The notes below the pieces were generated by a model. It ran no database searches. It had not been told where the DNA came from and saw only the letters and a program-made list of their open reading frames with translations. Made by a program: the position numbers and the translations under genes. Shown piece after piece: positions 645 through 16,472 of a stretch of DNA of 16,721 nt. This stretch comes from a virus (lineage: Duplodnaviria; Heunggongvirae; Uroviricota; Caudoviricetes). The stretch is taken from positions 1 through 16,721 of the IMG/VR virus record IMGVR_UViG_2617270976_000017. One strand, written 5' to 3'. How positions within the stretch are numbered: position 1 is the stretch's first letter; each line of letters opens with the position of its first letter.

Positions 645-1265
645 ATGAAAGATCAAGATGTTAGGTTCGCGGTGCATCATAAGCTTTTGAAAGAATCGCA
701 TTTAGATCCAGACTGCCTTGTGGTCGATGAATTTTCCATATCCCTTGGCGCCAGTAGAGCAGACATTGCTGTAATAAATGGTGTTATACACGGGTACGAG
801 CTCAAAAGTGAATATGACTCTTTGGAGCGTTTGCCTCTTCAAATCAAGCATTATTCTTCTGTAATGGACAAGGTTACTCTTGTCGTAGCTGAGAAACACC
901 TTGAGGGAGCATTAAAGTTAATCCCAGGTTGGTGGGGCGTTAAAACGGTTTCTGTTGGGCCAAAAGGCGCCATTCTTATAAAGCACATGCGTGGAGAAAA
1001 GCTTAATCGAAACCATGACACATTGATGCTCGCTCAATTGCTTTGGAAAGATGAATGTATCGACGTACTTGAACGATGGGGCTATTCCAAAGGAATCAAA
1101 AGCAAGCCCCGATTTGAGTTATGGAATATTATTGCGGAAAATATTCCAATAGCGAATCTCAGGCTTGAAGTCAGAACAGCCTTAAAGAAACGCGTAGGCT
1201 GGAAAGTTAAGGCTTGGCAGGCTGAGTCTGCGCCAACCAATAAAGCTGTCTCACGACTAACGTAA
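645..1265 (+). CDS. hypothetical 206-aa protein with a PD-(D/E)xK-like nuclease signature (..RADIAVINGVIHGYELKSE..); accessory (moron) gene
   Basis: Long ORF with strong RBS; AT-richer than the flanking phage structural genes; Asp followed ~12 residues later by E-L-K in hydrophobic beta-strand-like context, as in restriction-endonuclease-fold proteins. Family assignment not possible without HMM search. Confidence 0.65.
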   Translation: MKDQDVRFAVHHKLLKESHLDPDCLVVDEFSISLGASRADIAVINGVIHGYELKSEYDSLERLPLQIKHYSSVMDKVTLVVAEKHLEGALKLIPGWWGVKTVSVGPKGAILIKHMRGEKLNRNHDTLMLAQLLWKDECIDVLERWGYSKGIKSKPRFELWNIIAENIPIANLRLEVRTALKKRVGWKVKAWQAESAPTNKAVSRLT

Positions 1266-2274
1266 TATGGTGCGTATGTGCAACTTTACGCCATTCTTTA
1301 GAGCCGCCAGATTTGTTAGCGCCTAATGATCTTTGGTAAATGTAATCATCCCCCCAACTAAATTTGGAGCCAAAGACTTGATACTCTGGCGAACTAACAA
1401 GGGTAGTACATAAGTTTTTAGTTTGGCCCCATCCATTTCCTTTAACTGCGGTACCTTTTACAAAGATCCATGAGGTATCGTTCGAATATCTCACTGAGAC
1501 ATACTGAGACATGAAGCGTGGGTCTACGCTCGTAATGGTAGAGCTAGCGGTGGGATAATCACTAAAACTTGGCGTTCTTCCATTGCTAAAATTCTGTACT
1601 ACGTACATCCAAAGATCGTATTCATGGCGCGGAATATGATGAACTTGATGTTGCGGTATCCCTGCCTGTGATGCCGGGTATGCGGTTGAAGATAAAATCA
1701 AGTTTCTCCACGGAGCTTGGCCTGATAATGTGTTGACCATGCTTAATGCTTGTTGTTTTAAACTATCAGTTGCGTTTTGAATATCTCCAAAATCAATGAT
1801 TACATCAATTAAACTAGGATGAATATTTAAGTGGTTAACCAGACTTGTGAATTGGTGCCATGTCTGGGGGGTGATAGATATAGCGAGCCCATTGATTAAG
1901 TTGCGTTGAACAGCATGTATATAGTTTGTTGAATATGCGGGAGAAACAACAGGGATAATTTCCTTACCATTTACTCTAGCATCTTGGATACACATATCTA
2001 GAGGATGATGGCGGCTCGAACCATGTTTATCTAAATATTTAACATCCAGCAAAACAGGACGATTGGCTTTCCAGGATGCCGCAAGGTTAATACCGAAGTC
2101 AGATAAGTAAGAACTCAAACTCTTCTTGTAGCATTCGTTTTCATAATCCCAGTCTATGTCTGGAATGGTAATGATCGGAGTAAAACCAGAGAGCGTAGTT
2201 TGATCTAAAAGCATCAGAGATTCATATTCAGCAGGCTTCCATTTCAGCTGTGGATAATATTGATGTTGACTCAT
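1207..2274 (-). CDS. hypothetical 355-aa protein, convergent to and overlapping the 3' end of 645..1265; accessory gene
   Basis: Long minus-strand ORF; ATG at 2274-2272 preceded by a perfect AAGGAG (complement of 2280-2285) with 5-nt spacing; same AT-rich composition as its neighbour. No recognisable lambda homolog. Confidence 0.65.
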   Translation of the reverse strand: MSQHQYYPQLKWKPAEYESLMLLDQTTLSGFTPIITIPDIDWDYENECYKKSLSSYLSDFGINLAASWKANRPVLLDVKYLDKHGSSRHHPLDMCIQDARVNGKEIIPVVSPAYSTNYIHAVQRNLINGLAISITPQTWHQFTSLVNHLNIHPSLIDVIIDFGDIQNATDSLKQQALSMVNTLSGQAPWRNLILSSTAYPASQAGIPQHQVHHIPRHEYDLWMYVVQNFSNGRTPSFSDYPTASSTITSVDPRFMSQYVSVRYSNDTSWIFVKGTAVKGNGWGQTKNLCTTLVSSPEYQVFGSKFSWGDDYIYQRSLGANKSGGSKEWRKVAHTHHITLVVRQLYWLAQTQPAKP

Positions 2275-5133: not shown

Positions 5134-5323
5134 ACTGCAGGCGCTGCGTCAGGCGCGCCTTGATTTATTAACCGGTAAACGGGTGGTGTCTGTCCAGAAA
5201 GATGGTCGCAGAATTGAATATACGGCAGCTTCTCTGGATGAGCTTAACCGGGCGATCAATGATGCGGAGTCGGTACTGGGGACAACCCGCCGTCGCCGTC
5301 GTCCGCTGGGAGTGAGGTTATGA
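5117..5323 (+). CDS. W: head-tail joining / head completion protein (lambda gpW homolog, 68 aa)
   Basis: 68-aa ORF with LLTGKRVVSVQKDGRRIEYTA core matching lambda gpW; overlaps A stop and B start (ATGA) as in lambda. Confidence 0.9.
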   Translation: MVTVAELQALRQARLDLLTGKRVVSVQKDGRRIEYTAASLDELNRAINDAESVLGTTRRRRRPLGVRL

Positions 5324-7029
5324 AACGAACGCCTGTCCTGATTGATGTGAACGGCGTTCCGCTTCGGGAGAGCCTCAGCTACAACGGTGGCGGTGCAGGA
5401 TTTGGCGGGCAAATGGCAGAGTGGTTGCCACCCTCGCAGAGTGCCGATGCGGCCCTGCTGCCCGCGTTGCGTCTGGGGAATGCCCGTGCAGATGATCTGG
5501 TGCGCAATAACGGAATAGCGGCCAATGCGGTGGCCCTGCATAAGGATCACATTGTCGGGCATATGTTTCTGATTAGCTACCGTCCGAACTGGCGCTGGCT
5601 GGGGATGCGGGAGACCGCGGCAAAAAGTTTTGTCGATGAGGTGGAGGCGGCCTGGTCAGAATACGCAGAAGGGATGTTTGGTGAGATCGACGTGGAAGGG
5701 AAACGCACGTTTACGGAATTTATCCGTGAAGGTGTGTGCGTTCATGCGTTTAACGGCGAAATCTTTGTGCAGCCGGTCTGGGATACGGAGAGTACGCAAC
5801 TGTTTCGTACGCGTTTTAAAGCCGTGAGTCCGAAACGGGTGGACACGCCAGGACACGGTATCGGGAACCGTTTTCTGCGGGCCGGTGTGGAGGTTGATCG
5901 ATATGGCCGTGCCGTTGCGTACCATATCTGTGAGGATGATTTTCCTCGCTCCGGGAGTGGACGATGGGAACGGATCCCGCGTGAACTACCCACCGGGCGT
6001 CCGGCCATGCTGCATATTTTCGAGCCGGTGGAGGACGGGCAGACCCGTGGAGCCAATCAGTTTTACAGCGTTATGGAACGGCTGAAGATGCTCGATTCCC
6101 TGCAGGCAACACAGCTTCAGTCGGCCATAGTGAAGGCGATGTATGCAGCGACGATTGAAAGTGACCTTGATACCGAAAAGGCCTTTGAATATATCGCCGG
6201 TGCGCCGCAGGGGCAGAAGGATAATCCGCTTATTAATATTCTGGATAAGTTCTCCACCTGGTATGACACGAATAGCGTGACGCTGGGCGGTGTCAAAATT
6301 CCGCACCTTTTCCCCGGTGATGATCTGAAACTTCAGACCGCGCAGGATTCAGACAATGGATTTTCGGCGCTTGAACAGGCGCTGCTGCGGTATATCGCCG
6401 CCGGTCTTGGCGTTTCCTACGAACAGTTGTCCCGTGATTACTCGAAGGTCAGTTACTCAAGTGCCCGCGCATCCGCCAATGAGTCGTGGCGCTATTTTAT
6501 GGGGCGGCGAAAATTTATTGCGTCCCGGCTGGCCACGCAGATGTTTTCCTGCTGGCTGGAAGAGGCACTTCTTCGGGGGATTATTCGTCCGCCACGGGCA
6601 CGGTTTGATTTTTATCAGGCGCGATCAGCCTGGTCACGGGCTGAGTGGATTGGAGCCGGAAGAATGGCCATTGACGGGCTCAAGGAGGTTCAGGAATCAG
6701 TGATGCGCATTGAGGCCGGACTGAGCACGTATGAGAAAGAGCTGGCGCTGATGGGCGAGGATTATCAGGACATTTTCCGCCAGCAGGTCAGGGAATCTGC
6801 AGAGCGGGAAAAAGCCGGACTCTCACGTCCGGTGTGGATAGCGCAGGCGTATCAGCAGCAGATAGCGGAGAGTCGCAGGCCGGAAGAGGAGACAGTCGCG
6901 GATGAATATGACCAGCCGACGTCCGATATCACGAAGGATAAATGCAGCAAATGCCTGAGCGGCTGTAAGTTTCGCAATAACGTCGGCAACTTTGGCGGCT
7001 TCCTTTCCATTAACAAACTTTCGCAGTAA
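5320..7029 (+). CDS. B: portal protein (lambda gpB homolog) whose last codons are replaced by an in-frame fusion to the 3' end of tail gene L
   Basis: Residues 1-~525 colinear with lambda gpB (GGGAGFGGQ..., FEPVEDGQTRGANQFYSVME..., LRYIAAGLGVSYEQLSR...); the final 44 residues VADEYDQPTSDITKDKCSKCLSGCKFRNNVGNFGGFLSINKLSQ match the C-terminus of lambda gpL. Confidence 0.85.
   Translation: MKRTPVLIDVNGVPLRESLSYNGGGAGFGGQMAEWLPPSQSADAALLPALRLGNARADDLVRNNGIAANAVALHKDHIVGHMFLISYRPNWRWLGMRETAAKSFVDEVEAAWSEYAEGMFGEIDVEGKRTFTEFIREGVCVHAFNGEIFVQPVWDTESTQLFRTRFKAVSPKRVDTPGHGIGNRFLRAGVEVDRYGRAVAYHICEDDFPRSGSGRWERIPRELPTGRPAMLHIFEPVEDGQTRGANQFYSVMERLKMLDSLQATQLQSAIVKAMYAATIESDLDTEKAFEYIAGAPQGQKDNPLINILDKFSTWYDTNSVTLGGVKIPHLFPGDDLKLQTAQDSDNGFSALEQALLRYIAAGLGVSYEQLSRDYSKVSYSSARASANESWRYFMGRRKFIASRLATQMFSCWLEEALLRGIIRPPRARFDFYQARSAWSRAEWIGAGRMAIDGLKEVQESVMRIEAGLSTYEKELALMGEDYQDIFRQQVRESAEREKAGLSRPVWIAQAYQQQIAESRRPEEETVADEYDQPTSDITKDKCSKCLSGCKFRNNVGNFGGFLSINKLSQ
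6895..7029 (+). pseudogene. L: 3' remnant of tail tip gene L (last ~44 codons) fused to B
   Basis: C-terminal gpL sequence including the Cys-rich CSKCLSGC block; immediately followed by K as in lambda gene order L-K-I-J. Confidence 0.7.
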
Positions 7030-8793: not shown

Positions 8794-10186
8794 ATGGGTA
8801 AAGGAAGCAGTAAGGGGCATACCCCGCGCGAAGCGAAGGACAACCTGAAATCCACGCAATTACTGAGTGTGATCGATGCCATCAGCGAAGGGCCGATTGA
8901 AGGTCCGGTGGATGGATTAAAAAGCGTGCTGCTGAACAGTACACCGGTGCTGGACAGTGAGGGGAATACCAACATCTCCGGTGTCACGGTGGTGTTCCGG
9001 GCAGGTGAGCAGGAGCAGACACCGCCGGAGGGATTTGAATCCTCCGGTTCCGAGACGGTGCTGGGTACGGAAGTGAAATACGACACGCCGATCACCCGGA
9101 CCATCACGTCTGCAAACATCGACCGTCTGCGCTTTACCTTCGGTGTGCAGGCTCTGGTGGAAACCACCTCAAAGGGGGACCGGAATCCGTCGGAAGTCCG
9201 CCTGCTGGTTCAGATACAACGTAACGGTGGCTGGGTGACGGAAAAAGACATCACCATTAAGGGCAAAACCACCTCGCAGTATCTGGCCTCGGTGGTGGTG
9301 GGTAACCTGCCGCCGCGCCCGTTTAATATCCGGATGCGCAGAATGACGCCGGACAGCACCACAGACCAGCTGCAGAACAAAACGCTCTGGTCGTCATACA
9401 CCGAAATCATCGATGTGAAACAGTGCTATCGGTGCCGGTATTGAGAATACGCCAGCAGGAATGCAGAGTCAGGTGCTGCTGGCGGCAGACAGGATTGCGA
9501 TGATTAATCCTGCGAATGGCAACACAAAGCCGATGTTTGTTGGTCAGGGCGATCAGATATTTATGAATGAAGTGTTCCTGAAATATCTGACGGCTCCCAC
9601 CATTACCAGCGGCGGTAATCCTCCGGCATTTTCCCTGACACCGGACGGGCGGCTGACGGCGAAAAATGCCGATATCAGCGGTAACGTGAATGCGAACTCC
9701 GGGACGCTCAACAACGTCACGATTAACGAGAACTGTCGGGTTCTGGGAAAATTGTCCGCGAACCAGATTGAAGGCGATCTCGTTAAAACAGTGGGCAAAG
9801 CTTTCCCCCGGGACTCCCGTGCACCGGAGCGGTGGCCATCAGGAACCATTACCGTCAGGGTTTATGACGATCAGCCGTTTGACCGGCAGATTGTTATTCC
9901 GGCGGTGGCATTCAGCGGCGCTAAACATGAGAAAGAGCATACTGATATTTACTCCTCATGCCGTCTGATAGTGCGGAAAAACGGTGCTGAAATTTATAAC
10001 CGTACCGCGCTGGATAATACGCTGATTTACAGTGGTGTTATTGATATGCCTGCCGGTCACGGTCACATGACACTGGAGTTTTCGGTGTCAGCATGGCTGG
10101 TAAATAACTGGTATCCCACAGCAAGTATCAGCGATTTGCTGGTTGTGGTGATGAAGAAAGCCACTGCAGGCATCACGATTAGCTGA
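8794..10186 (+). pseudogene. J: tail tip/host specificity gene J, disrupted: N-terminal ~210 codons (8794..9444) joined out of frame to the C-terminal ~240 codons (9461..10186); central ~2 kb missing
   Basis: 8794..9444 matches lambda gpJ residues 1-~212 nearly residue for residue and then stops (..VKQCYRCRY*); 9461..10186 in another frame matches the gpJ C-terminal region (..[32 protein letters not shown]..) with a divergent extreme C-terminus. Confidence 0.8.
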
Positions 10187-10253: not shown

Positions 10254-10853
10254 ATGCGTAAATTATGTGCTGTTATTTTGTCCGCAGTAGTCTGGCAGGT
10301 CGCCGCTGCTACGCCAGCGAGTGCAGCAGAACATCAGTCCACGCTGAGCGCGGGGTATCTCCATGCCTCGACGAACGTTCCCGGTAGTGATGATCTGAAC
10401 GGGATTAACGTGAAATACCGTTATGAGTTTACGGACGCGCTGGGGCTGATTACGTCCTTCAGTTATGCCAATGCTGAGGATGAGCAAAAAACGCGCTACA
10501 GCGATACCCGCTGGCATGAAGATTCCGTGCGTAACCGCTGGTTCAGCGTGATGGCGGGGCCGTCTGTACGCGTGAATGAATGGTTCAGCGCGTATGCGAT
10601 GGTGGGTGTGGCTTACAGCCGTGTGTCGACTTTCTCCGGGGATTATCTCCGCGTAACTGACAACAAGGGGAAAACGCACGATGTGCTGACCGGAAGTGAT
10701 GACGGTCGCCACAGCAACACGTCTCTGGCGTGGGGGGCTGGCGTGCAGTTTAATCCGACCGAATCCGTGACCATTGACCTTGCTTATGAAGGTTCCGGTA
10801 GTGGCGACTGGCGAACGGATGCATTTATTGTTGGTATCGGATACCGTTTCTGA
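10254..10853 (+). CDS. lom: outer membrane beta-barrel protein Lom (Ail/Lom/PagC family)
   Basis: Signal-peptide-like N-terminus, alternating beta-strand pattern, C-terminal ...GIGYRF; position between J and stf as in lambda. Confidence 0.85.
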   Translation: MRKLCAVILSAVVWQVAAATPASAAEHQSTLSAGYLHASTNVPGSDDLNGINVKYRYEFTDALGLITSFSYANAEDEQKTRYSDTRWHEDSVRNRWFSVMAGPSVRVNEWFSAYAMVGVAYSRVSTFSGDYLRVTDNKGKTHDVLTGSDDGRHSNTSLAWGAGVQFNPTESVTIDLAYEGSGSGDWRTDAFIVGIGYRF

Positions 10854-10958
10854 CAACAGACGCCGATTTATCTTCTGTAAATATTGTTATGATACGCAGG
10901 TTCATCCACCTTATGGGGTGAACTGCGTTTGAGGAAACGTAAAGTTACACTGTCCTGA

Positions 10959-10990
10959 AGCCCGTGGCGTCACTGCTGCGGGCTTTTTTT
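10959..10990 (+). terminator. terminator-like stem (AGCCCG...CGGGCT) followed by T7 tract
   Basis: 6-bp stem with a long (14-nt) loop and TTTTTTT immediately downstream; loop is long, so call is weak. Confidence 0.4.
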
Positions 10991-11004
10991 ATTGGTGGAA
11001 AAGT

Positions 11005-13911
11005 ATGACAGTAAAAATTTCTGGCGTGCTTAAAGATGGCACAGGAAAACCAGTACAGAACTGCACCATTGTGCTGAAGGCCAGACGAACCAGCAGCACG
11101 GTGGTGGTGAACACGGTGGCCTCTGAAAATCCGGATGAAGCCGGACGTTACAGCATGGATGTTGAGCATGGTCAGTACAGCGTCACCCTGCTGGTTGAAG
11201 GTTTTCCGCCTTCACATGCCGGGACCATTACCGTCTATGAAGGTTCCAGACCAGGTACGCTGAATGATTTTCTCGGTGCCATGACGGAGGATGATGTCCG
11301 ACCGGAGGCACTGCGCCGCTTTGAGCAGATGGTAGAAGAGGTGTCACGTAACGCCTCCGCGGTTGCACAGAATACGGCAGCCGCGAAAAAATCAGTCAGC
11401 GATGCCAGTGCATCAGCCAGCGAGGCGGCAACTCATGCAACCGATGCTGCAGCCTCAGCACGTGCCGCCAGCACGTCAGCCGGACAGGCCGCGTCGTCGG
11501 CTCAGTCAGCGTCTTCCAGCGCAGGAACGGCATCGACAAAGGCCCGTGAAGCAGCAAAAAGTGCTGCTGCTGCAGAGTCATCAAAAAGCGCGGCAGCTAC
11601 CAGCGCCAGTGCCGCGAAAACGTCAGAAACGAATGCCGCAGCATCACAAAAATCGGCAGCCACTTCTGCATCCACAGCGACCACGAAGGCGTCAGAAGCT
11701 GCCACCTCGGCACGGGGTGCGGCGGCCTCAAAAGAGGCAGCGAAATCTTCAGAAACGAATGCATCATCAAGTGCCAGTAGTGCAGCTTCCTCGGCAACGG
11801 CGGCAGGAAATTCCGCGAAGGCGGCAAAAACGTCCGAGACGAACGCTAAGTCTTCTGAAACAGCAGCGGGACAGAGCGCCTCAGCTGCGGCAGGTTCAAA
11901 AACAGCGGCTGCATTATCTGCCAGTGCCGCGTCAACAAGTGCCGGGCAGGCCTCAGCCAGTGCCACCGCCGCCGGAAAATCGGCAGAAAGCGCCGCATCA
12001 TCCGCTTCAACAGCCACAACGAAGGCTGGCAAAGCCACTGAGCAAGCCACTGCAGCAGCGAGGTCTGCTTCTGCAGCAAAAACCTCTGAAACAAATGCAA
12101 AGACTTCAGCAGACAATGCTGCTTCCTCTAAGGCGGCAGCCGCATCGTCAGCCAGTTCAGCGGCGTCATCGGCATCATCTGCGTCTGCTTCAAAAGATGA
12201 GGCGACCAGACAAGCGTCAGCAGCGAAAGGTAGTGCCACGACAGCAACAACGAAAGCATCAGAGGCAGCTGGTAGTGCGACGGCGGCAGCTCAGAGCAAA
12301 AGTACGGCGGAATCCGCGGCAACGCGCGCCGAGACAGCAGCAAAACGGGCAGAGGATATTGCATCCGCCGTGGCGCTGGAGGATGCGAGCACGACGAAAA
12401 AGGGGATAGTACAGCTCAGCAGTGCGACCAACAGCACTTCCGAGTCACTGGCGGCAACGCCAAAAGCGGTTAAGGCGGTAATGGGTGAAACGAACAAGAA
12501 AGCGCCCTTAAATAGTCCTGCACTGACCGGAACGCCAACAACACCAACTGCGCGACAGGGAACGAATAATACCCAAATCGCAAGCACGGCTTATGTTATG
12601 GCTGCGATCGCTGCCCTCGTGGACTCGTCGCCTGACGCACTGAATACGCTGAACGAGCTGGCTGCGGCGTTGGGCAACGACCCGAATTTTGCGACCACCA
12701 TGACTAGCGCGCTTGCGGGTAAGCAACCGAAAGATGCCACCCTGACGGCGCTGGCCGGGCTTGCTACTGCGGCAGACAGGTTTCCGTATTTTACGGGGAA
12801 TGATGTTGCCAGTCTGGCAATCCTGACAAAAGTTGGGCGGGATATTCTTGCGAAATCGACCGTTGCCGCCGTTATCGAATACCTCGGTTTACAGGAAACG
12901 GTAAACAAGGCTGGTAACGCCGTTCAGCGTTCCGGCGATAAAATGACCGGAGAACTGAAAATTGGCACGGTGAATGCGCTGCGAATTTTCAATGATGCCT
13001 TCGGTCTTATTTTCCGTCGTTCAGAAGATTTTCTTCATTTCATTCCGACGGCTGAAGGACAAGGCGAAAACGGTGATATCGGCCCATTAAGGCCATTCGC
13101 TATAAATCTGAGAACAGGTGCTATATCTGTCAGCCACGGGGCCAAAATTGATGGTGGGCTGGCGCTTGGTACAGATAACGCACTGGGCGGTAATTCCATT
13201 ACTCTCGGAGATAACGACACTGGTATTAAACAGGGCGGCGACGGTGTCCTTTTATTCTATTCAAATGGACAACTGGCATTTGGGCTTCAACCCGCATCTG
13301 CTGATTTTTATAAGCGGGTTGCATATATTCATCAGGGAATAATTCCTGATGGAAGTGGCGCATTTGCAGACCAGTTGAATAATGCCACCGCGCCTTTTGT
13401 TCAGACGCAGTTTGCCTGGAATCCCACTCCTGGTGGTCATTACGTGCCGATAGTTAAGGGCTTGTCCATTCGCAATGGACAGGGCTATCCCGGCGCGGTC
13501 AGCTTTGGGTATTTACTGACAGAACAGTATGGATTTCCGGTTCCATGTATTCATATGCGTGGCGATGGAGGTAATGATGCTTTATGGTATTTTAACCCGA
13601 ACGATAAATCCTTTATTTCACCGGGTGCTCTTATTGCGGGTGGCGTCCGTTATAACACCGATGGAAATATATTTGGTGGGTGCTGGGGTTCAAACTTAAA
13701 TGATTACCTGAATAGTTCTTTTATCAGAAATGTGCGTCTGGGAGGCAGACGTTCTGACACATTATATCGCGGAGGACTTTGCGAACCAGGTAATGGTCAT
13801 GTGACAACAGGATTGCAAATTATTGGTGAGGTTGATGGAGATGACTGGATGGTGTCACGACCACTACAAAAATACATTTCTGGTAACTGGTATAACGTTG
13901 AACAGGCATAG
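11005..13911 (+). CDS. stf: side tail fibre protein (Stf family), 968 aa, with Ala/Ser-rich repetitive shaft
   Basis: N-terminus MTVKISGVLKDGTGKP.QNCTIVLKARRTSSTVV and ...YSVTLLVEGFPPSHAGTITVYE match the conserved Stf N-domain; long A/S-rich repeat region; C-terminal tip ...PLQKYISGNWYNVEQA. Confidence 0.9.
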   Translation: MTVKISGVLKDGTGKPVQNCTIVLKARRTSSTVVVNTVASENPDEAGRYSMDVEHGQYSVTLLVEGFPPSHAGTITVYEGSRPGTLNDFLGAMTEDDVRPEALRRFEQMVEEVSRNASAVAQNTAAAKKSVSDASASASEAATHATDAAASARAASTSAGQAASSAQSASSSAGTASTKAREAAKSAAAAESSKSAAATSASAAKTSETNAAASQKSAATSASTATTKASEAATSARGAAASKEAAKSSETNASSSASSAASSATAAGNSAKAAKTSETNAKSSETAAGQSASAAAGSKTAAALSASAASTSAGQASASATAAGKSAESAASSASTATTKAGKATEQATAAARSASAAKTSETNAKTSADNAASSKAAAASSASSAASSASSASASKDEATRQASAAKGSATTATTKASEAAGSATAAAQSKSTAESAATRAETAAKRAEDIASAVALEDASTTKKGIVQLSSATNSTSESLAATPKAVKAVMGETNKKAPLNSPALTGTPTTPTARQGTNNTQIASTAYVMAAIAALVDSSPDALNTLNELAAALGNDPNFATTMTSALAGKQPKDATLTALAGLATAADRFPYFTGNDVASLAILTKVGRDILAKSTVAAVIEYLGLQETVNKAGNAVQRSGDKMTGELKIGTVNALRIFNDAFGLIFRRSEDFLHFIPTAEGQGENGDIGPLRPFAINLRTGAISVSHGAKIDGGLALGTDNALGGNSITLGDNDTGIKQGGDGVLLFYSNGQLAFGLQPASADFYKRVAYIHQGIIPDGSGAFADQLNNATAPFVQTQFAWNPTPGGHYVPIVKGLSIRNGQGYPGAVSFGYLLTEQYGFPVPCIHMRGDGGNDALWYFNPNDKSFISPGALIAGGVRYNTDGNIFGGCWGSNLNDYLNSSFIRNVRLGGRRSDTLYRGGLCEPGNGHVTTGLQIIGEVDGDDWMVSRPLQKYISGNWYNVEQA
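11350..12370 (+). repeat. intragenic tandem-repeat region of stf encoding the Ala/Ser-rich shaft (recurring ..AAKTSETNA.. units)
   Basis: Repeated nucleotide blocks such as gcgaaaacgtcagaaacgaatgc / gcaaaaacgtccgagacgaacgc / gcaaaaacctctgaaacaaatgc recur at ~11615, ~11745, ~11825, ~12075. Confidence 0.6.
12872..12897 (+). other. 26-bp recombination (crossover) site of a Gin/Pin/Cin/Hin-type inversion system, inside stf
   Basis: TTATCGAATACCTCGGTTTACAGGAA closely resembles the gix/pix-type crossover sites as I recall them and is an inverted copy (22/26) of the site at 15951..15976. Confidence 0.65.
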
Positions 13912-13926
13912 CCATCAGGAGAATAT

Positions 13927-14454
13927 ATGCAACATCTGAAAAATATTACCGCCGGAAACCCCAAAACCATTGAGCAGTATCAGCTTACGAAAAAAGCTGG
14001 CGTTATCTGGCTATATACAGAAGACGGTAAAAACTGGTATGACGAATTAAAAAACTTTCAGGATGATACTTTAAAAATAGCTTATGACCAGAAGGGGATT
14101 ATTCGTTGTATTGAGAAAGACGTATCAATGCTTAACCCTGACGGGTTAAGTGTTGTTGAGTTACCGAATATAACAGCCAACCGTCGCGCCGATATCTCGG
14201 GAAACTGGAAGTTTCTGGATGGTAAAGTAGTAAAGCGGGAATATACAAAACAGGAACTGCAACAGCAGGCAGAGTTACAAAAAGCCGCTTTGCTTTCCGA
14301 AGCGGAGTCTGTGATTCAACCGCTGGAACGTGCTGTCAGACTGAATATGGCAACTGATGAGGAACGCACACGACTGGAATCATGGGAACGCTACAGCGTT
14401 ATGGTCAGCCGTGTGGATACTGCAAAGCCTGAATGGCCACAGAAACCAGAATAA
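13927..14454 (+). CDS. tfa: tail fibre assembly protein (Tfa family)
   Basis: 175-aa ORF directly after stf with good RBS (CAGGAGA); N-terminal half matches the conserved Tfa pattern and is paralogous to the inverted ORF at 14485..15018. Confidence 0.85.
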
Positions 14455-14465
14455 CAACAAATTAA

Positions 14466-14485
14466 GGCCCGTACGGGCCTTTTCT
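14466..14485. terminator. bidirectional terminator hairpin (GGCCCG-TA-CGGGCC) between the convergent tfa genes
   Basis: Perfect 6-bp GC stem with T-rich flanks on both strands, located between the stop codons of the two convergent tfa genes. Confidence 0.5.
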
Positions 14486-15018
14486 TATTCTGGTGGTTCC
14501 GGGAATGTTACAGGAAGAACCGAGGTATCAGTTGTCTCAACCTGTTGCACGTATCGCATCCAGTTCATCAGTTGCTGTCTGTCTGAATCAGTGATAATCC
14601 CCAAAGTAAGCTGTGTTTGCCAGAACTGCGTTTTTTCTCTGGCCTGCTGTAATAATATTTTTTTCTGGTTTTCCGTCTGTAGGCGCAACTCTTCTTCGGT
14701 ATATACACGTTTAATGACTGCGCCATCTTTAAACATCCATTTACCTGAGTCGTCAGCACGCCGGTTGGCGGTAATATCAGGAATCTCAACGACGCTATAA
14801 CCTTCAGGGTTAAGTGTGGAGGCATCTTTGGTTATGGCAACAATAATATTATTTTCATCGTAAACAATCTTTATGGTGTCTGGCTGAAAGTTTTTCACTT
14901 CCTCATACCAGTTTTTTCCGTCCTCAGAGTAAAGCCAGATAACTCCGTGTTTCTTTGTTAACTCATACTGTTCCAGTGTTTTAGCATTACCCGCTTTTAT
15001 GTTCTTTAAGTGCATCAT
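14485..15018 (-). CDS. tfa: tail fibre assembly protein, second copy in inverted orientation (Tfa')
   Basis: [45 protein letters not shown]... is clearly paralogous to the + strand Tfa ([45 protein letters not shown]...). Confidence 0.85.
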
Positions 15019-15019
15019 A

Positions 15020-15523
15020 TTAAACGCTCGCTACATTATACCAGGTGCCATTTATATACTTTTGAACGGGTCTGTAATAAACGCCCGCTATATTATCGGC
15101 AGAGTTAGACCCTGTATCCTGAACATTAATACCAGACAATACATGACCTGAAGGGCACTGGAAATTCCATGTTTGCCAGTTGTTCACTCCATAATATTGC
15201 TGTGAACCAAGTCGAACATCTTTCACATAACGGGAATCAAAGTTACCGTAATCCGAGGGGTTAACACGCCCTGTAATATTTATGGTTTTATTACTTTGAA
15301 TGCTTCCGGAGACAAAGCGCATAACATGGACGTTATTAGCATAAACATCCAGATTACCATCGCCATTTTGTTTAAAGCCCGTGTCATTATCACCCAATAC
15401 AATCGAATTACCGCCAAGAGCACTGGATGTTCCGATACCCAGTGCACCATTCAGTTGACCACCAGATAACGGCAGTGATAGAAACAGAAGCCACTGGAGC
15501 ACCTCAAAAACACCATCATACAC
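15020..15523 (-). CDS. stf: alternative side tail fibre C-terminal (receptor-binding) segment, inverted orientation (StfE-like fragment)
   Basis: Contains ..[22 protein letters not shown].. and C-terminal ..[16 protein letters not shown], paralogous to the stf tip (..ALGGNSITLGDNDTGIKQGGDG.. / ..PLQKYISGNWYNVEQA); stop abuts tfa' start. Confidence 0.75.
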
Positions 15524-15587
15524 TAAATCAGTAAGTTGGCAGCATCACCCACGGGCTGAACGATAAAAAATACCGCCATTTTTATAA

Positions 15588-15962
15588 TTAATCCAAAAAC
15601 TGAGCTGCAGGACAACTTCCTTCTCCCATATAAAAATGAATAATTAACGTTGATGCACCACTAATAGTTGCGTTATAGGCTCCGCTACTCCAGTTCCATC
15701 CAACTGCTTTATCATTCGCAACGGTGCTTCCTGTTTTCCCTAAGGCAAACGCACCAACATGACTTGCTTTTAATGTGATATCGGAGGAACCATCAAAAGC
15801 CACATTGCTTATTTTCCTGGCAGTTTTTAATTTTGCAGCTGTAGAAGCATTGCCGGATAGTTCACCAGAAAGGCCACCGCTGAATGTTTGTCGATTAGTC
15901 CAGGTATTCGCTGTACTGAGTAACGGTATTTTCTCCCCGCTTGTGCCGAGTTCTCGTAAACC
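15588..15962 (-). pseudogene. proximal part of the alternative stf variable segment, in frame with the crossover site but separated from the distal part (15020..15523) by stops in all frames
   Basis: Reading the minus strand from the crossover site at 15962 gives an open frame (GLRELGTSGEKIPLL...GSCPAAQFLD) ending at TAA 15588-15590; the downstream tip ORF is in a different frame. Confidence 0.45.
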
Positions 15963-15976
15963 GAGGTTTTAGATAA
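15951..15976 (+). other. second 26-bp crossover site, inverted relative to 12872..12897
   Basis: TTCTCGTAAACCGAGGTTTTAGATAA; its reverse complement TTATCTAAAACCTCGGTTTACGAGAA matches the stf-internal site at 22/26 positions with an identical central ACCTCGGTTTAC core. Confidence 0.65.
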
Positions 15977-16030
15977 TGGCGGTTTCTGGCCTGCATGGCA
16001 TGATTTGTGCTTTTGGACGGGAGATTCAGC

Positions 16031-16436
16031 GTGCTGATTGGCTATGTAAGGGTATCAACAAATGACCAGAATACAGATCTGCAACGAAACGCTCTTGTTT
16101 GTGCAGGATATGAACAAATATTTGAAGATAAATTAAGCGGAACAAGGACAGGCCGACCTGGATTAAAACGTGCTTTAAAGCGCCTTCAAAAAGGTGACGC
16201 ACTGGTTGTCTGAAAACTGGACTGACTGGTTCACTGTATGCGGCATCTTGTCGTGCTGGTGGTGGAAGCCTAGAAAAAGTATCGGGTGTTGCTGAACCGT
16301 GTTGATACATCAACTGCACCTGATATTGAGTGGCCTACGAACCCTGTCAGGGAGTAATCATTGGGATTATGCCGCAGCACGTCTTAAGCAAGAACGTGCT
16401 GCGGTTGGATGGTGAACTTTCGATAGTGCGAGTATT
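16031..16436 (+). pseudogene. pin: Pin/Gin/Cin/Hin-family serine DNA invertase, inactivated (first ~60 codons intact, then multiple in-frame stops)
   Basis: VLIGYVRVSTNDQNTDLQRNALVCAGYEQIFEDKLSGTRTGRPGLKRALKRLQKGDALVV matches the invertase N-terminus including the catalytic Ser context; TGA at 16211-16213 falls where a Trp is expected, followed by further stops while residual similarity (..MRHLVVLVVE.., ..RVDTST..) persists. 3' end approximate. Confidence 0.65.
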
Positions 16437-16472
16437 GAATGATTTCCAGCCGTTACCGATTTTACGTGTTAA

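What the first reader, a model, noticed from the sequence alone, without database searches (positions are those of the whole stretch)
16031..16440. Invertase gene decayed after codon 60: possible retention of the cis-acting enhancer with inversion driven in trans
The first ~60 codons match the Pin/Gin/Hin N-terminus almost perfectly, including the catalytic Ser context (YVRVSTNDQ). A TGA at 16211-16213 replaces an expected Trp and further stops follow, although residual similarity continues. In this invertase family the Fis-dependent recombinational enhancer lies within the 5' part of the invertase gene (established knowledge as I recall it). The sharp conserved/decayed boundary could therefore reflect selection on the enhancer DNA while catalytic function is supplied by an invertase from another prophage.
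Basis: partly seen in the sequence, partly recalled or inferred. Interest (0 to 1): 0.55.

Follow-up and report, generated by a model that had tools for sequence, protein, structure and literature searches.

The report
Orphaned tail-fibre switch with invertase stub
A defective prophage keeps a flippable tail-fibre DNA segment whose own flipping enzyme gene is cut down to a short stub; near-identical copies in E. coli ST131 still flip using an enzyme from another prophage, and this has been published, so the finding is real but largely known.

Summary
Positions 16031-16210 encode the first 60 codons of a Gin/Pin-type serine invertase, 92-95% identical in DNA to Mu gin and the P88 invertase up to 16221. 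TGA at 16211 replaces Trp and TGA at 16223 replaces Arg.

The rest is not gradual decay. A 15-nt scrambled patch (16222-16236) is followed by ten PinE-type codons (16237-16266). The gene is then fused to the 3' end of a tail-fibre-assembly gene (16257-16357). Nothing after about 16266 is invertase.

The stub lies next to an intact pair of 26-bp crossover sites (12872-12897 and 15951-15976) that flank a 3.1-kb tail-fibre segment. By homology, the Fis enhancer (about 16052-16115) lies inside the stub.

The same stub occurs in 536 of 5426 complete E. coli genomes. The segment beside it is found in both orientations (374 versus 153 genomes). Sister isolates differ only by an exact inversion, and they carry intact invertases in other prophages. 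Inversion in trans is therefore well supported.

It was already reported for the 99.5%-identical Phi4 prophage of E. coli EC958 (Forde et al. 2014). Selection on the enhancer is not shown. The conserved/diverged boundary lies 100 bp beyond the enhancer, and polymorphism in the enhancer is not significantly reduced.

The parts
11005..13911 (+). Side tail-fibre gene (968 codons). The constant part runs up to the left crossover site. The currently joined variable C-terminal part (Sv) is 12898-13911.
   Evidence: Intact ORF. 99.5% identical to the ST131 Phi4-type tail fibre region. Annotated 'prophage tail fiber N-terminal domain-containing protein' in homologues.
12872..12897 (+). Left 26-bp crossover site, TTATCGAATACC-TC-GGTTTACAGGAA, lying inside the tail-fibre gene.
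   Evidence: Inverted repeat I2. Identical to 'Phi4_5prime' of EC958 in Forde et al. 2014, Table 3. It is the inversion breakpoint between U12A and U15A.
12885..15963 (.). Invertible segment, 3079 nt between the site centres. It carries Sv-U on the + strand and U'-Sv' on the - strand.
   Evidence: The homologous 3081-nt segment occurs in both orientations in E. coli genomes.
13927..14454 (+). Tail-fibre assembly gene (U-like, 175 aa), partner of the currently expressed fibre tip.
   Evidence: ORF and translation. Annotated tfa in homologues.
14485..15018 (-). Alternative tail-fibre assembly gene (U'-like, 177 aa).
15020..15950 (-). Alternative fibre C-terminal part (Sv'). In this window it is broken by the IS1 scar.
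   Evidence: The reading frame switches around 15470-15590. The ST131 homologue is uninterrupted.
15476..15549 (-). 74-nt terminal remnant of IS1 that replaces 75 nt of Sv'.
   Evidence: 100% identical to positions 695-768 of the annotated IS1A sequence of MG1655. The window/ST131 alignment breaks exactly here.
15951..15976 (+). Right 26-bp crossover site, TTCTCGTAAACC-GA-GGTTTTAGATAA.
   Evidence: One mismatch from the P88 site and three from Mu gix. Identical to the reverse complement of 'Phi4_3prime' of EC958.
16031..16213 (+). Invertase stub: 60 gin-type codons that include the catalytic-serine motif YVRVSTNDQ, ending at TGA in place of Trp.
   Evidence: RefSeq annotates the homologue as 'recombinase family protein, incomplete, missing C-terminus'.
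16052..16115 (.). Inferred Fis-dependent recombinational enhancer. Proximal Fis-site homologue is 16052-16066 (GTATCAACAAATGAC). Distal homologue is 16101-16115 (GTGCAGGATATGAAC).
   Evidence: Placed by in-frame homology to the hin enhancer (hin sequence from my memory). Centres are 49 bp apart, and the proximal centre is 95.5 bp from the crossover-site centre. This fits the published description: a 65-bp element with a Fis site at each end, about 100 bp from hixL, in the N-terminal coding region (PMC3798978; PMC2724282). Fis binding was not tested.
16222..16236 (+). Scrambled patch where the catalytic DRLGRS motif should be. It reads D*LVHC and includes TGA 16223-16225.
   Evidence: 8 of 18 nt differ from the pinE-type sequence over the six DRLGRS codons (16220-16237), and the stretch also differs from the gin type. 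No intact phage invertase matches it. The TGA is shared by all truncated alleles.
16237..16266 (+). Last invertase-derived piece, PinE-type codons about 70-79 (MRHLVVLVVE).
   Evidence: About 29 of 30 positions identical to e14 pinE, against about 50% identity to gin and P88. PinE protein reads MRHLVVLVEE.
16257..16357 (+). 3' fragment of a tail-fibre assembly gene, fused in frame to the stub: A[W to stop]KKYRVLLNRVDTSTAPDIEWPTNPVRE*. About 10 nt overlap the invertase piece at the junction.
   Evidence: Intact tfa genes in thousands of genomes match from 16257-16263 onward. Annotated as a tfa fragment in L001, L002, L009 and L010.

Best explanation
This is the right end of a G/P-type invertible tail-fibre segment in a badly deleted lambda-like prophage.

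How the stub arose. The cognate Gin/Pin-family serine invertase gene was cut off at about codon 79. A deletion or illegitimate recombination joined it, across about 10 nt of overlap, to the 3' end of a tail-fibre-assembly gene. The remnant later picked up nonsense mutations. TGA 16223 is found in all truncated alleles. TGA 16211 and TAG 16270 occur only in the window/ST131 lineage.

What survives. The stub cannot make an active enzyme: the DRLGR motif is ruined, and the E-helix and DNA-binding domain are gone. Because the break lies downstream, the stub still carries every cis element needed for inversion. These are the right crossover site 55 bp upstream of the start codon, its partner site inside the fibre gene, and (inferred) the Fis enhancer in codons 8-29.

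How it works. A Pin-family invertase encoded by another prophage binds the two 26-bp sites. It is activated by Fis bound to the stub's enhancer and exchanges strands at the central TC/GA dinucleotide, flipping the 3.1-kb segment.

What is shown: the anatomy; the identity of the cis elements with those of ST131 prophage Phi4; natural inversion of that homologue; and co-resident intact invertases.

What is inferred: which invertase acts; that the stub's enhancer is what makes inversion efficient; and that this window's own host has an invertase.

Retention of the 5' part is best explained by where the deletion happened to end, not by demonstrated selection. In this window the switch has no phage function, because the alternative fibre tip is destroyed by an IS1 scar and the prophage lacks most head and tail genes.
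For: Anatomy and homology:
-.

The truncated junction is a shared, old allele:
- 536 of 5426 complete E. coli genomes carry it.
- 35 IMG/VR loci carry it, giving 14 haplotypes over 15964-16243.

Both orientations occur next to the same stub:
- 374 genomes match the as-is right junction and 153 match the computed flipped junction, both at 99.8%.
- U12A and U15A are identical over 12.5 kb except for an exact 3065-nt reverse complement bounded within the sites.

Intact invertases in the same genomes:
- A 190-aa gene next to aroA is 100% identical in U12A-U15A, 4/0, 4/1-1, 4/4, EC958 and JJ1886.
- U12A has a second, 199-aa invertase in a P2-like prophage.

Published direct observation:
- Mixed orientations were seen in one EC958 culture, with the trans interpretation, for Phi4. 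Its 26-bp sites are identical to the window's (PMC4134206).

Literature on mechanism:
- A cis enhancer and Fis are required by wild-type invertases, and the enhancer lies in the N-terminal coding region (PMC2724282; PMC3798978).
- Cross-prophage action of a Pin invertase has a precedent in PinQ acting on e14 (PMC12529663).

Defective state of this prophage:
-.
Against: - The rest of the source genome is unavailable, so it is unknown whether an intact invertase is present or whether this copy actually flips.
- The enhancer is placed only by homology. Fis consensus scanning is not discriminating, and the hin sequence used for register is from memory.
- No experiment links the stub's enhancer to inversion.
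- Which trans invertase acts is unknown.
- The scrambled patch at 16222-16236 is unexplained.
Confidence: 0.85

Rival explanations
1. The 5' stub is kept by natural selection because it carries the enhancer. An enhancer-bearing stub keeps the segment switchable by foreign invertases, and that switching benefits the phage or the host.
For: - The stub allele is widespread and old: 10% of complete E. coli genomes, 14 haplotypes over the stub and at least four kinds of downstream sequence.
- The right crossover site is intact in 35 of the 37 loci that reach it, the two Fis-site homologues are unchanged at their G/C anchors in all but L041/L046 and L017, and a partner site was found in most loci with enough upstream sequence.
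- Inversion is ongoing.
- An independent truncation that also keeps about 89 5' codons exists in phage vB_EcoM-606R2.
- Inversion of a cryptic-prophage fibre segment can benefit the host, as in PinQ/e14 phage defence (PMC12529663).
- Polymorphism is nominally lower in the enhancer (4/78 versus 12/99).
Against: - The difference in polymorphism is not significant (p = 0.12 and 0.23). The same region is also the most conserved part of intact invertase genes, and some stub variants look imported from intact genes (P88-state cluster at 16141-16171 in L028/L041/L046), so the comparison is confounded.
- The conserved block extends 100 bp beyond the enhancer, and its end is a recombination junction.
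- Some alleles damage the element: C to T at the +7 anchor of the proximal Fis site in L041/L046, and a 110-nt deletion removing half of the crossover site and the proximal Fis site in L017.
- Ascertainment bias applies. A deletion entering from the 5' side would also remove the crossover site 55 bp upstream, so only 5'-retaining stubs remain recognisable beside a switch.
- In this window the alternative fibre tip and the prophage are already dead.
Confidence: 0.12
2. Pure wreckage. The stub, the sites and the segment are inert relics in this genome. No inversion occurs here, and the conserved 5' block only reflects a recent origin.
For: - The prophage is grossly deleted: a portal::L fusion and a fragmented J gene.
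- Sv' is broken by an IS1 remnant.
- The source genome could not be examined for an invertase. It is not among complete RefSeq E. coli genomes or GTDB species representatives.
Against: - The cis elements are base-for-base identical to those of ST131 Phi4: no differences over 15940-16243, and the same left site. Phi4 flips in culture and between sister isolates.
- Pin-family invertases are common in E. coli-type genomes: 3129 of 5426 genomes match an invertase 3' half.
Confidence: 0.2
3. The in-frame stops are sequencing or assembly errors, and the invertase is intact.
For: None beyond the general possibility.
Against: - The same stops occur in hundreds of independent complete assemblies.
- Even with the stops read through, the sequence after codon 79 is a tfa gene fragment. 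It has no E-helix or DNA-binding domain.
Confidence: 0.01

Closest known systems
Prophage Phi4 of E. coli O25b:H4-ST131 EC958 (truncated invertase EC958_1582; Forde et al. 2014, PLoS One 9:e104400)
   Same: - 99.5% identical DNA from the tail-fibre gene to 16411.
- Identical 26-bp crossover sites and the same stub::tfa junction with the same stops.
- Phi4 was shown to exist in both orientations within one culture. The authors proposed inversion in trans by the Phi1 invertase.
   Different: - The window has an IS1 scar in Sv' (15476-15549).
- The downstream sequence differs from 16411 on: a DinI-like gene here, a methyltransferase insertion next to trp in ST131.
- The prophage body carries different deletions.
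- The text I read from Forde et al. does not mention the enhancer.
Mu G segment/Gin, P1 C segment/Cin, e14 P segment/Pin and Salmonella H segment/Hin (Fis-enhancer-dependent serine DNA invertase systems)
   Same: - Layout: Sc-[Sv U | U' Sv']-invertase.
- 26-bp inverted crossover sites with a matching central dinucleotide (gix-type GA/TC core).
- The invertase gene starts about 55 bp outside the right site.
- The enhancer homologue lies in codons 8-29, about 95 bp from the site.
- Stub DNA is 92% identical to Mu gin.
   Different: - The invertase here is a 79-codon remnant: gin-type, then a patch, then PinE-type, fused to a tfa 3' end.
- The system is not autonomous.
- The host element is a lambda-like prophage, not a Mu-, P1- or e14-type element.
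PinQ (Qin prophage) inverting the P segment of e14 (Kirigo et al. 2025, NAR, PMC12529663)
   Same: A Pin-family invertase from one cryptic prophage inverts a tail-fibre segment in another cryptic prophage. This shows such zombie switches can matter to the host.
   Different: - e14 still has its own intact pinE, whereas here the cis invertase is dead.
- No host phenotype is known for this segment.

Membership tests
Gin/Pin/Cin/Hin DNA invertase (small serine recombinase), functional gene | N-terminal catalytic serine in the Y-x-R-V-S-T-x-D-Q motif | tested here: met
   YVRVSTNDQ at codons 5-13. 60 codons align with Gin, P88 and PinE.
Gin/Pin/Cin/Hin DNA invertase (small serine recombinase), functional gene | Complete catalytic domain including the D-R-L-G-R motif | tested here: not met
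   The stub reads D*LVHC at 16220-16237. There are stops at 16211 and 16223.
Gin/Pin/Cin/Hin DNA invertase (small serine recombinase), functional gene | E-helix (oligomerisation) and C-terminal helix-turn-helix DNA-binding domain | tested here: not met
   Invertase homology ends at about codon 79. A tfa fragment follows. Forde et al. likewise note a truncated invertase lacking the helix-turn-helix.
G/P/C-type invertible tail-fibre segment | Two 26-bp crossover sites in inverted orientation with an identical central dinucleotide, one of them inside the fibre gene | tested here: met
   Sites at 12872-12897 and 15951-15976, both with a TC/GA core.
G/P/C-type invertible tail-fibre segment | Two opposed sets of variable fibre tip plus assembly gene | tested here: met
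   Sv-U on the + strand and U'-Sv' on the - strand. Sv' is disrupted here by an IS1 remnant.
G/P/C-type invertible tail-fibre segment | Segment observed in both orientations | tested here: met
   Met for the near-identical homologue: 374 versus 153 genomes, an exact inversion between U12A and U15A, and mixed reads in EC958. It could not be tested for this window's own strain.
G/P/C-type invertible tail-fibre segment | Adjacent functional cognate invertase | tested here: not met
   Only a stub is present.
Fis-dependent recombinational enhancer | Two Fis sites about 48 bp apart, in the 5' coding region of the invertase, about 100 bp from the nearest crossover site | tested here: inconclusive
   Homologous 15-mers with G/C anchors lie at 16052-16066 and 16101-16115. 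Their centres are 49 bp apart, and the proximal centre is 95.5 bp from the site centre. This is consistent with PMC3798978 and PMC2724282. The Fis consensus is too degenerate to prove binding.
Fis-dependent recombinational enhancer | Fis binding and cis stimulation of inversion | not testable with these tools
   This needs footprinting or inversion assays with enhancer and fis mutants.

The most novel reading that the evidence does not exclude
Enhancer-bearing invertase stubs are not accidents. They are a recurrent, selectively maintained way of turning a prophage's tail-fibre segment into a 'client' switch. Any resident Pin-family invertase can drive such a switch, so that cryptic prophages keep supplying switchable fibre or receptor-blocking proteins to the host or to superinfecting phages. 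Two independent stubs support the possibility: this one, cut at codon 79, and the phage vB_EcoM-606R2 stub, cut at about codon 89.
Probability: 0.1. Interest if true: 0.55.

Novelty: already known. Interest (0 to 1): 0.3.

Why it matters
It is a clean natural example showing that a site-specific inversion switch can outlive its own recombinase, provided the cis elements (crossover sites and, presumably, the enhancer) survive and a related enzyme is present elsewhere in the genome.

This affects genome annotation and assembly. Tail-fibre regions appear as 'spurious contigs' or as differences between sister isolates.

It also affects how cryptic prophages are read, because cross-prophage inversion has recently been linked to phage defence.

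The trans-inversion of this very allele is already in the literature. The only new angle is the explicit role of the retained enhancer, which remains untested.

Tried and rejected
1. Gradual decay after codon 60. Rejected. Ungapped alignment shows a gin-type block, a 15-nt patch, a PinE-type block and then a tfa gene fragment.

2. Stops as sequencing errors. Rejected.

3. Looking for an intact invertase that carries the 16222-16236 patch or spans 16170-16268. None was found among 50,697 phage records.

4. Identifying the source organism. It is not among complete RefSeq E. coli genomes; the best hit over the right end is 93.8% identical, and no genome covers at least 80% of the window. The junction 27-mer hit only one contaminant-like 2.5-kb contig among GTDB species representatives. 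No IMG/VR locus has the IS1 scar or the window's downstream sequence.

5. Using 'places_in_record' to argue that U12A-U15A lack a second invertase. Abandoned. U12A has a 199-aa invertase in its P2-like prophage whose 5' DNA is pinE-type and so invisible to megablast.

6. Fis consensus scanning to locate the enhancer independently. Not discriminating; several equally good 15-mers were found.

7. Retrieving the Johnson 2015 review and Huber et al. 1985 for exact enhancer coordinates. Not held.

8. Polymorphism test for constraint on the enhancer. Under-powered and confounded.

Full report
**What is in the sequence**

GTG 16031 opens a frame reading VLIGYVRVSTNDQNTDLQRNALVCAGYEQIFEDKLSGTRTGRPGLKRALKRLQKGDALVV, followed by TGA at 16211-16213. 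This is the N-terminus of a Gin/Pin-type serine invertase. At the DNA level, window 15940-16221 is 95.0% identical to the invertase region of phage P88_4B11 and 92.1% identical to Mu gin, in one ungapped register. The TGA stands where intact genes have the Trp codon TGG.

After 16221 the gin-type identity collapses, but not into decayed gin sequence.

- Positions 16222-16236 are a patch that disagrees with every reference. The catalytic DRLGRS becomes D*LVHC, with a second TGA at 16223.
- Positions 16237-16266 are about 29 of 30 identical to the e14 pinE lineage (MRHLVVLVVE against PinE MRHLVVLVEE).
- From 16257-16263 onward the DNA is the 3' end of a tail-fibre-assembly gene. Thousands of intact tfa genes match it at 95-99% from exactly that point, and RefSeq annotates the homologous stretch as a tfa fragment missing its N-terminus.
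- The TAG at 16270 is a mutated Trp codon of that tfa piece.

The invertase therefore ends at about codon 79, at a fusion junction with roughly 10 nt of overlap. Positions 16267-16440 are not invertase at all. No intact invertase in 50,697 phage records spans 16170-16268 or carries the patch. The patch remains unexplained.

**Surroundings**

The stub is the outer flank of a classical invertible tail-fibre segment.

- A 26-bp site TTCTCGTAAACC-GA-GGTTTTAGATAA lies at 15951-15976, 55 bp upstream of the start codon. It has one mismatch to the P88 site and three to Mu gix.
- Its inverted partner TTATCGAATACC-TC-GGTTTACAGGAA lies at 12872-12897, inside the 968-codon fibre gene.
- Between them are Sv and U on the + strand and U' and Sv' on the - strand.
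- In this window Sv' is broken. A 74-nt end of IS1, 100% identical to the end of MG1655 IS1A, replaces 75 nt of it at 15476-15549.
- The prophage is badly deleted. It has Nu1, terminase, a portal fused to the C-terminus of tail protein L, K, I, two J fragments and Lom. It cannot make virions.

**Enhancer**

The literature states that wild-type invertases require Fis and a cis-acting enhancer. It describes the hin enhancer as a 65-bp element with a Fis site at each end, located in the N-terminal coding region about 100 bp from hixL. The AT-rich ATTTA and TAATG segments lie between the Fis sites (PMC2724282; PMC3798978).

I aligned the hin 5' sequence, which I recalled from memory, in frame with the window. 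The recalled sequence does contain ATTTA and TAATG at the expected place. This puts the proximal Fis-site homologue at 16052-16066 (GTATCAACAAATGAC) and the distal one at 16101-16115 (GTGCAGGATATGAAC). Their centres are 49 bp apart, and the proximal centre is 95.5 bp from the centre of the right crossover site.

The placement is by homology only. A Fis consensus scan is not discriminating.

**Does the segment still invert?**

The same stub::tfa junction is present in 536 of 5426 complete E. coli genomes.

- A query joining the inside of the segment to the stub as in the window (15800-16300) is matched over at least 80% of its length by 374 genomes, at 99.8% in the listed top hits.
- A query I built for the flipped arrangement (reverse complement of 12885-13048 joined to 15964-16300) is matched in the same way by 153 genomes, also at 99.8% in the listed top hits.
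- Opposite orientations occur in sister isolates: 4/1-1 and 4/4 versus 4/0; U13A-U15A versus U12A; 2017_APHA versus 2019_APHA; p4A versus p11A.
- U12A and U15A are identical over 12.5 kb except for an exact reverse complement of 3065 nt whose ends fall inside the 26-bp sites. That is the signature of site-specific exchange at the central dinucleotide.

All these genomes carry an intact 190-aa Pin-family invertase next to aroA, about 486 kb away. U12A also has a 199-aa invertase in a P2-like prophage.

**Already published**

Forde et al. 2014 (PMC4134206) describe EC958 prophage Phi4 with exactly these two 26-bp sites, a 3106-bp invertible segment seen in both orientations in PacBio reads of one culture, and a 'severely truncated' invertase (EC958_1582). 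[quoted passage not shown] The window is 99.5% identical to the ST131 Phi4-type locus from 10629 to 16411. The trans-inversion idea is therefore correct and already known. Cross-prophage action of a Pin invertase is also documented for PinQ acting on e14 (PMC12529663).

**Is the stub retained because of selection on the enhancer?**

The evidence does not show it.

1. The conserved/diverged boundary at 16221 is about 100 bp beyond the distal Fis site. It is the edge of a mosaic followed by a gene fusion, so it is explained by recombination history.
2. I aligned 37 truncated alleles over 15964-16243 (35 with the junction 27-mer from IMG/VR minus one deleted, plus E. coli loci and the window). 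They give 14 haplotypes. Polymorphic sites number 7/81 between site and enhancer, 4/78 in the enhancer and 12/99 after it. Fisher tests give p = 0.12 and p = 0.23.
3. The same region is also the least diverged part of intact invertase genes. Some stub variants look imported from intact genes: the P88-state cluster at 16141-16171 in L028, L041 and L046. Even the nominal difference is therefore confounded.
4. Some alleles damage the element. L041 and L046 have C to T at the +7 anchor of the proximal site. L017 has a 110-nt deletion that removes the outer half of the crossover site, the start codon and the proximal site.
5. Ascertainment bias applies. The crossover site is only 55 bp upstream of the start codon, so a truncation from the 5' side would destroy the switch and would not be recognised as one.

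What can be said is functional rather than evolutionary. Efficient inversion by wild-type invertases needs a cis enhancer, the homologue flips readily, and the stub holds the only recognisable enhancer. The stub is therefore very probably what keeps the segment switchable.

**This window specifically**

Its cis elements are base-for-base those of ST131 Phi4, with no differences over 15940-16243. It should flip if its host has a Pin-family invertase.

I could not examine the host. The window is not in complete RefSeq E. coli genomes. The junction 27-mer is not in GTDB species representatives, apart from one contaminant-like contig.

Inversion here would join the fibre gene to an IS1-broken tip in a prophage that cannot form particles. 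Any activity is residual.

**Verdict**

The feature is real. The mechanistic guess of inversion in trans is right but already published for this allele. The selection claim is unsupported. Interest is low to moderate.

Noticed in passing
window 9724-9749 (core TC at 9736-9737); locus L020 5540-5620 and 11770-11850: One IMG/VR relative (L020) carries a 6.2-kb inversion between the right crossover site and a quasi-site in the J/lom region of the prophage. On the window's minus strand (the reverse complement of 9724-9749) the quasi-site reads TTCCCAGAACCC-GA-CAGTTCTCGTTA, with the same GA core. This looks like invertase-mediated recombination at a secondary site, of the kind known for Cin quasi-sites.
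   Followed up: partly
locus L017 3440-3520 (corresponds to window about 15968-16077 deleted): One truncated allele has a further 110-nt deletion. It removes the outer half of the right crossover site, the invertase start codon and the proximal Fis-site homologue. This is a fully dead version of the switch.
   Followed up: partly
locus L007 1537-1851 (phage vB_EcoM-606R2; also 611R5 and 683R1): A deposited phage genome carries an independently truncated PinE-type invertase next to its tail-fibre segment. Homology to pinE ends at about codon 89, and the ORF is 104 aa. This is a second case of a 5'-retaining invertase stub.
   Followed up: partly
window 15476-15549: A 74-nt IS1 terminal remnant replaces 75 nt of the alternative fibre tip. 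It looks like the scar of an IS1 insertion followed by deletion. No related locus in IMG/VR or ST131 has it.
   Followed up: yes
window 16222-16236: A dense cluster of substitutions lies exactly over the catalytic DRLGRS codons, between the gin-type and PinE-type blocks. About 6-8 nt in 15-18 differ from both invertase lineages. The cluster is shared by all truncated alleles, and no donor sequence was found.
   Followed up: partly
window 5320-7029 and 8794-10186: The 'portal' ORF is a fusion of a lambda-family portal (residues 29-397) to the C-terminal 45 residues of tail protein L. The J gene is split into fragments. Large internal deletions have removed head and tail genes.
   Followed up: partly
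window 1207-2274 (- strand): A 355-aa ORF with a full-length Pfam 'Beta_protein' (PF14350) match sits upstream of the Nu1/terminase genes. Its role was not examined.
   Followed up: no
NZ_CP015085.1 and NZ_CP015087.1 (same assembly): One O25b:H4 assembly has the segment in the as-is orientation in the chromosome and in the flipped orientation on a separate 32.8-kb record. This is probably the 'spurious contig' effect of a mixed population described by Forde et al.
   Followed up: no
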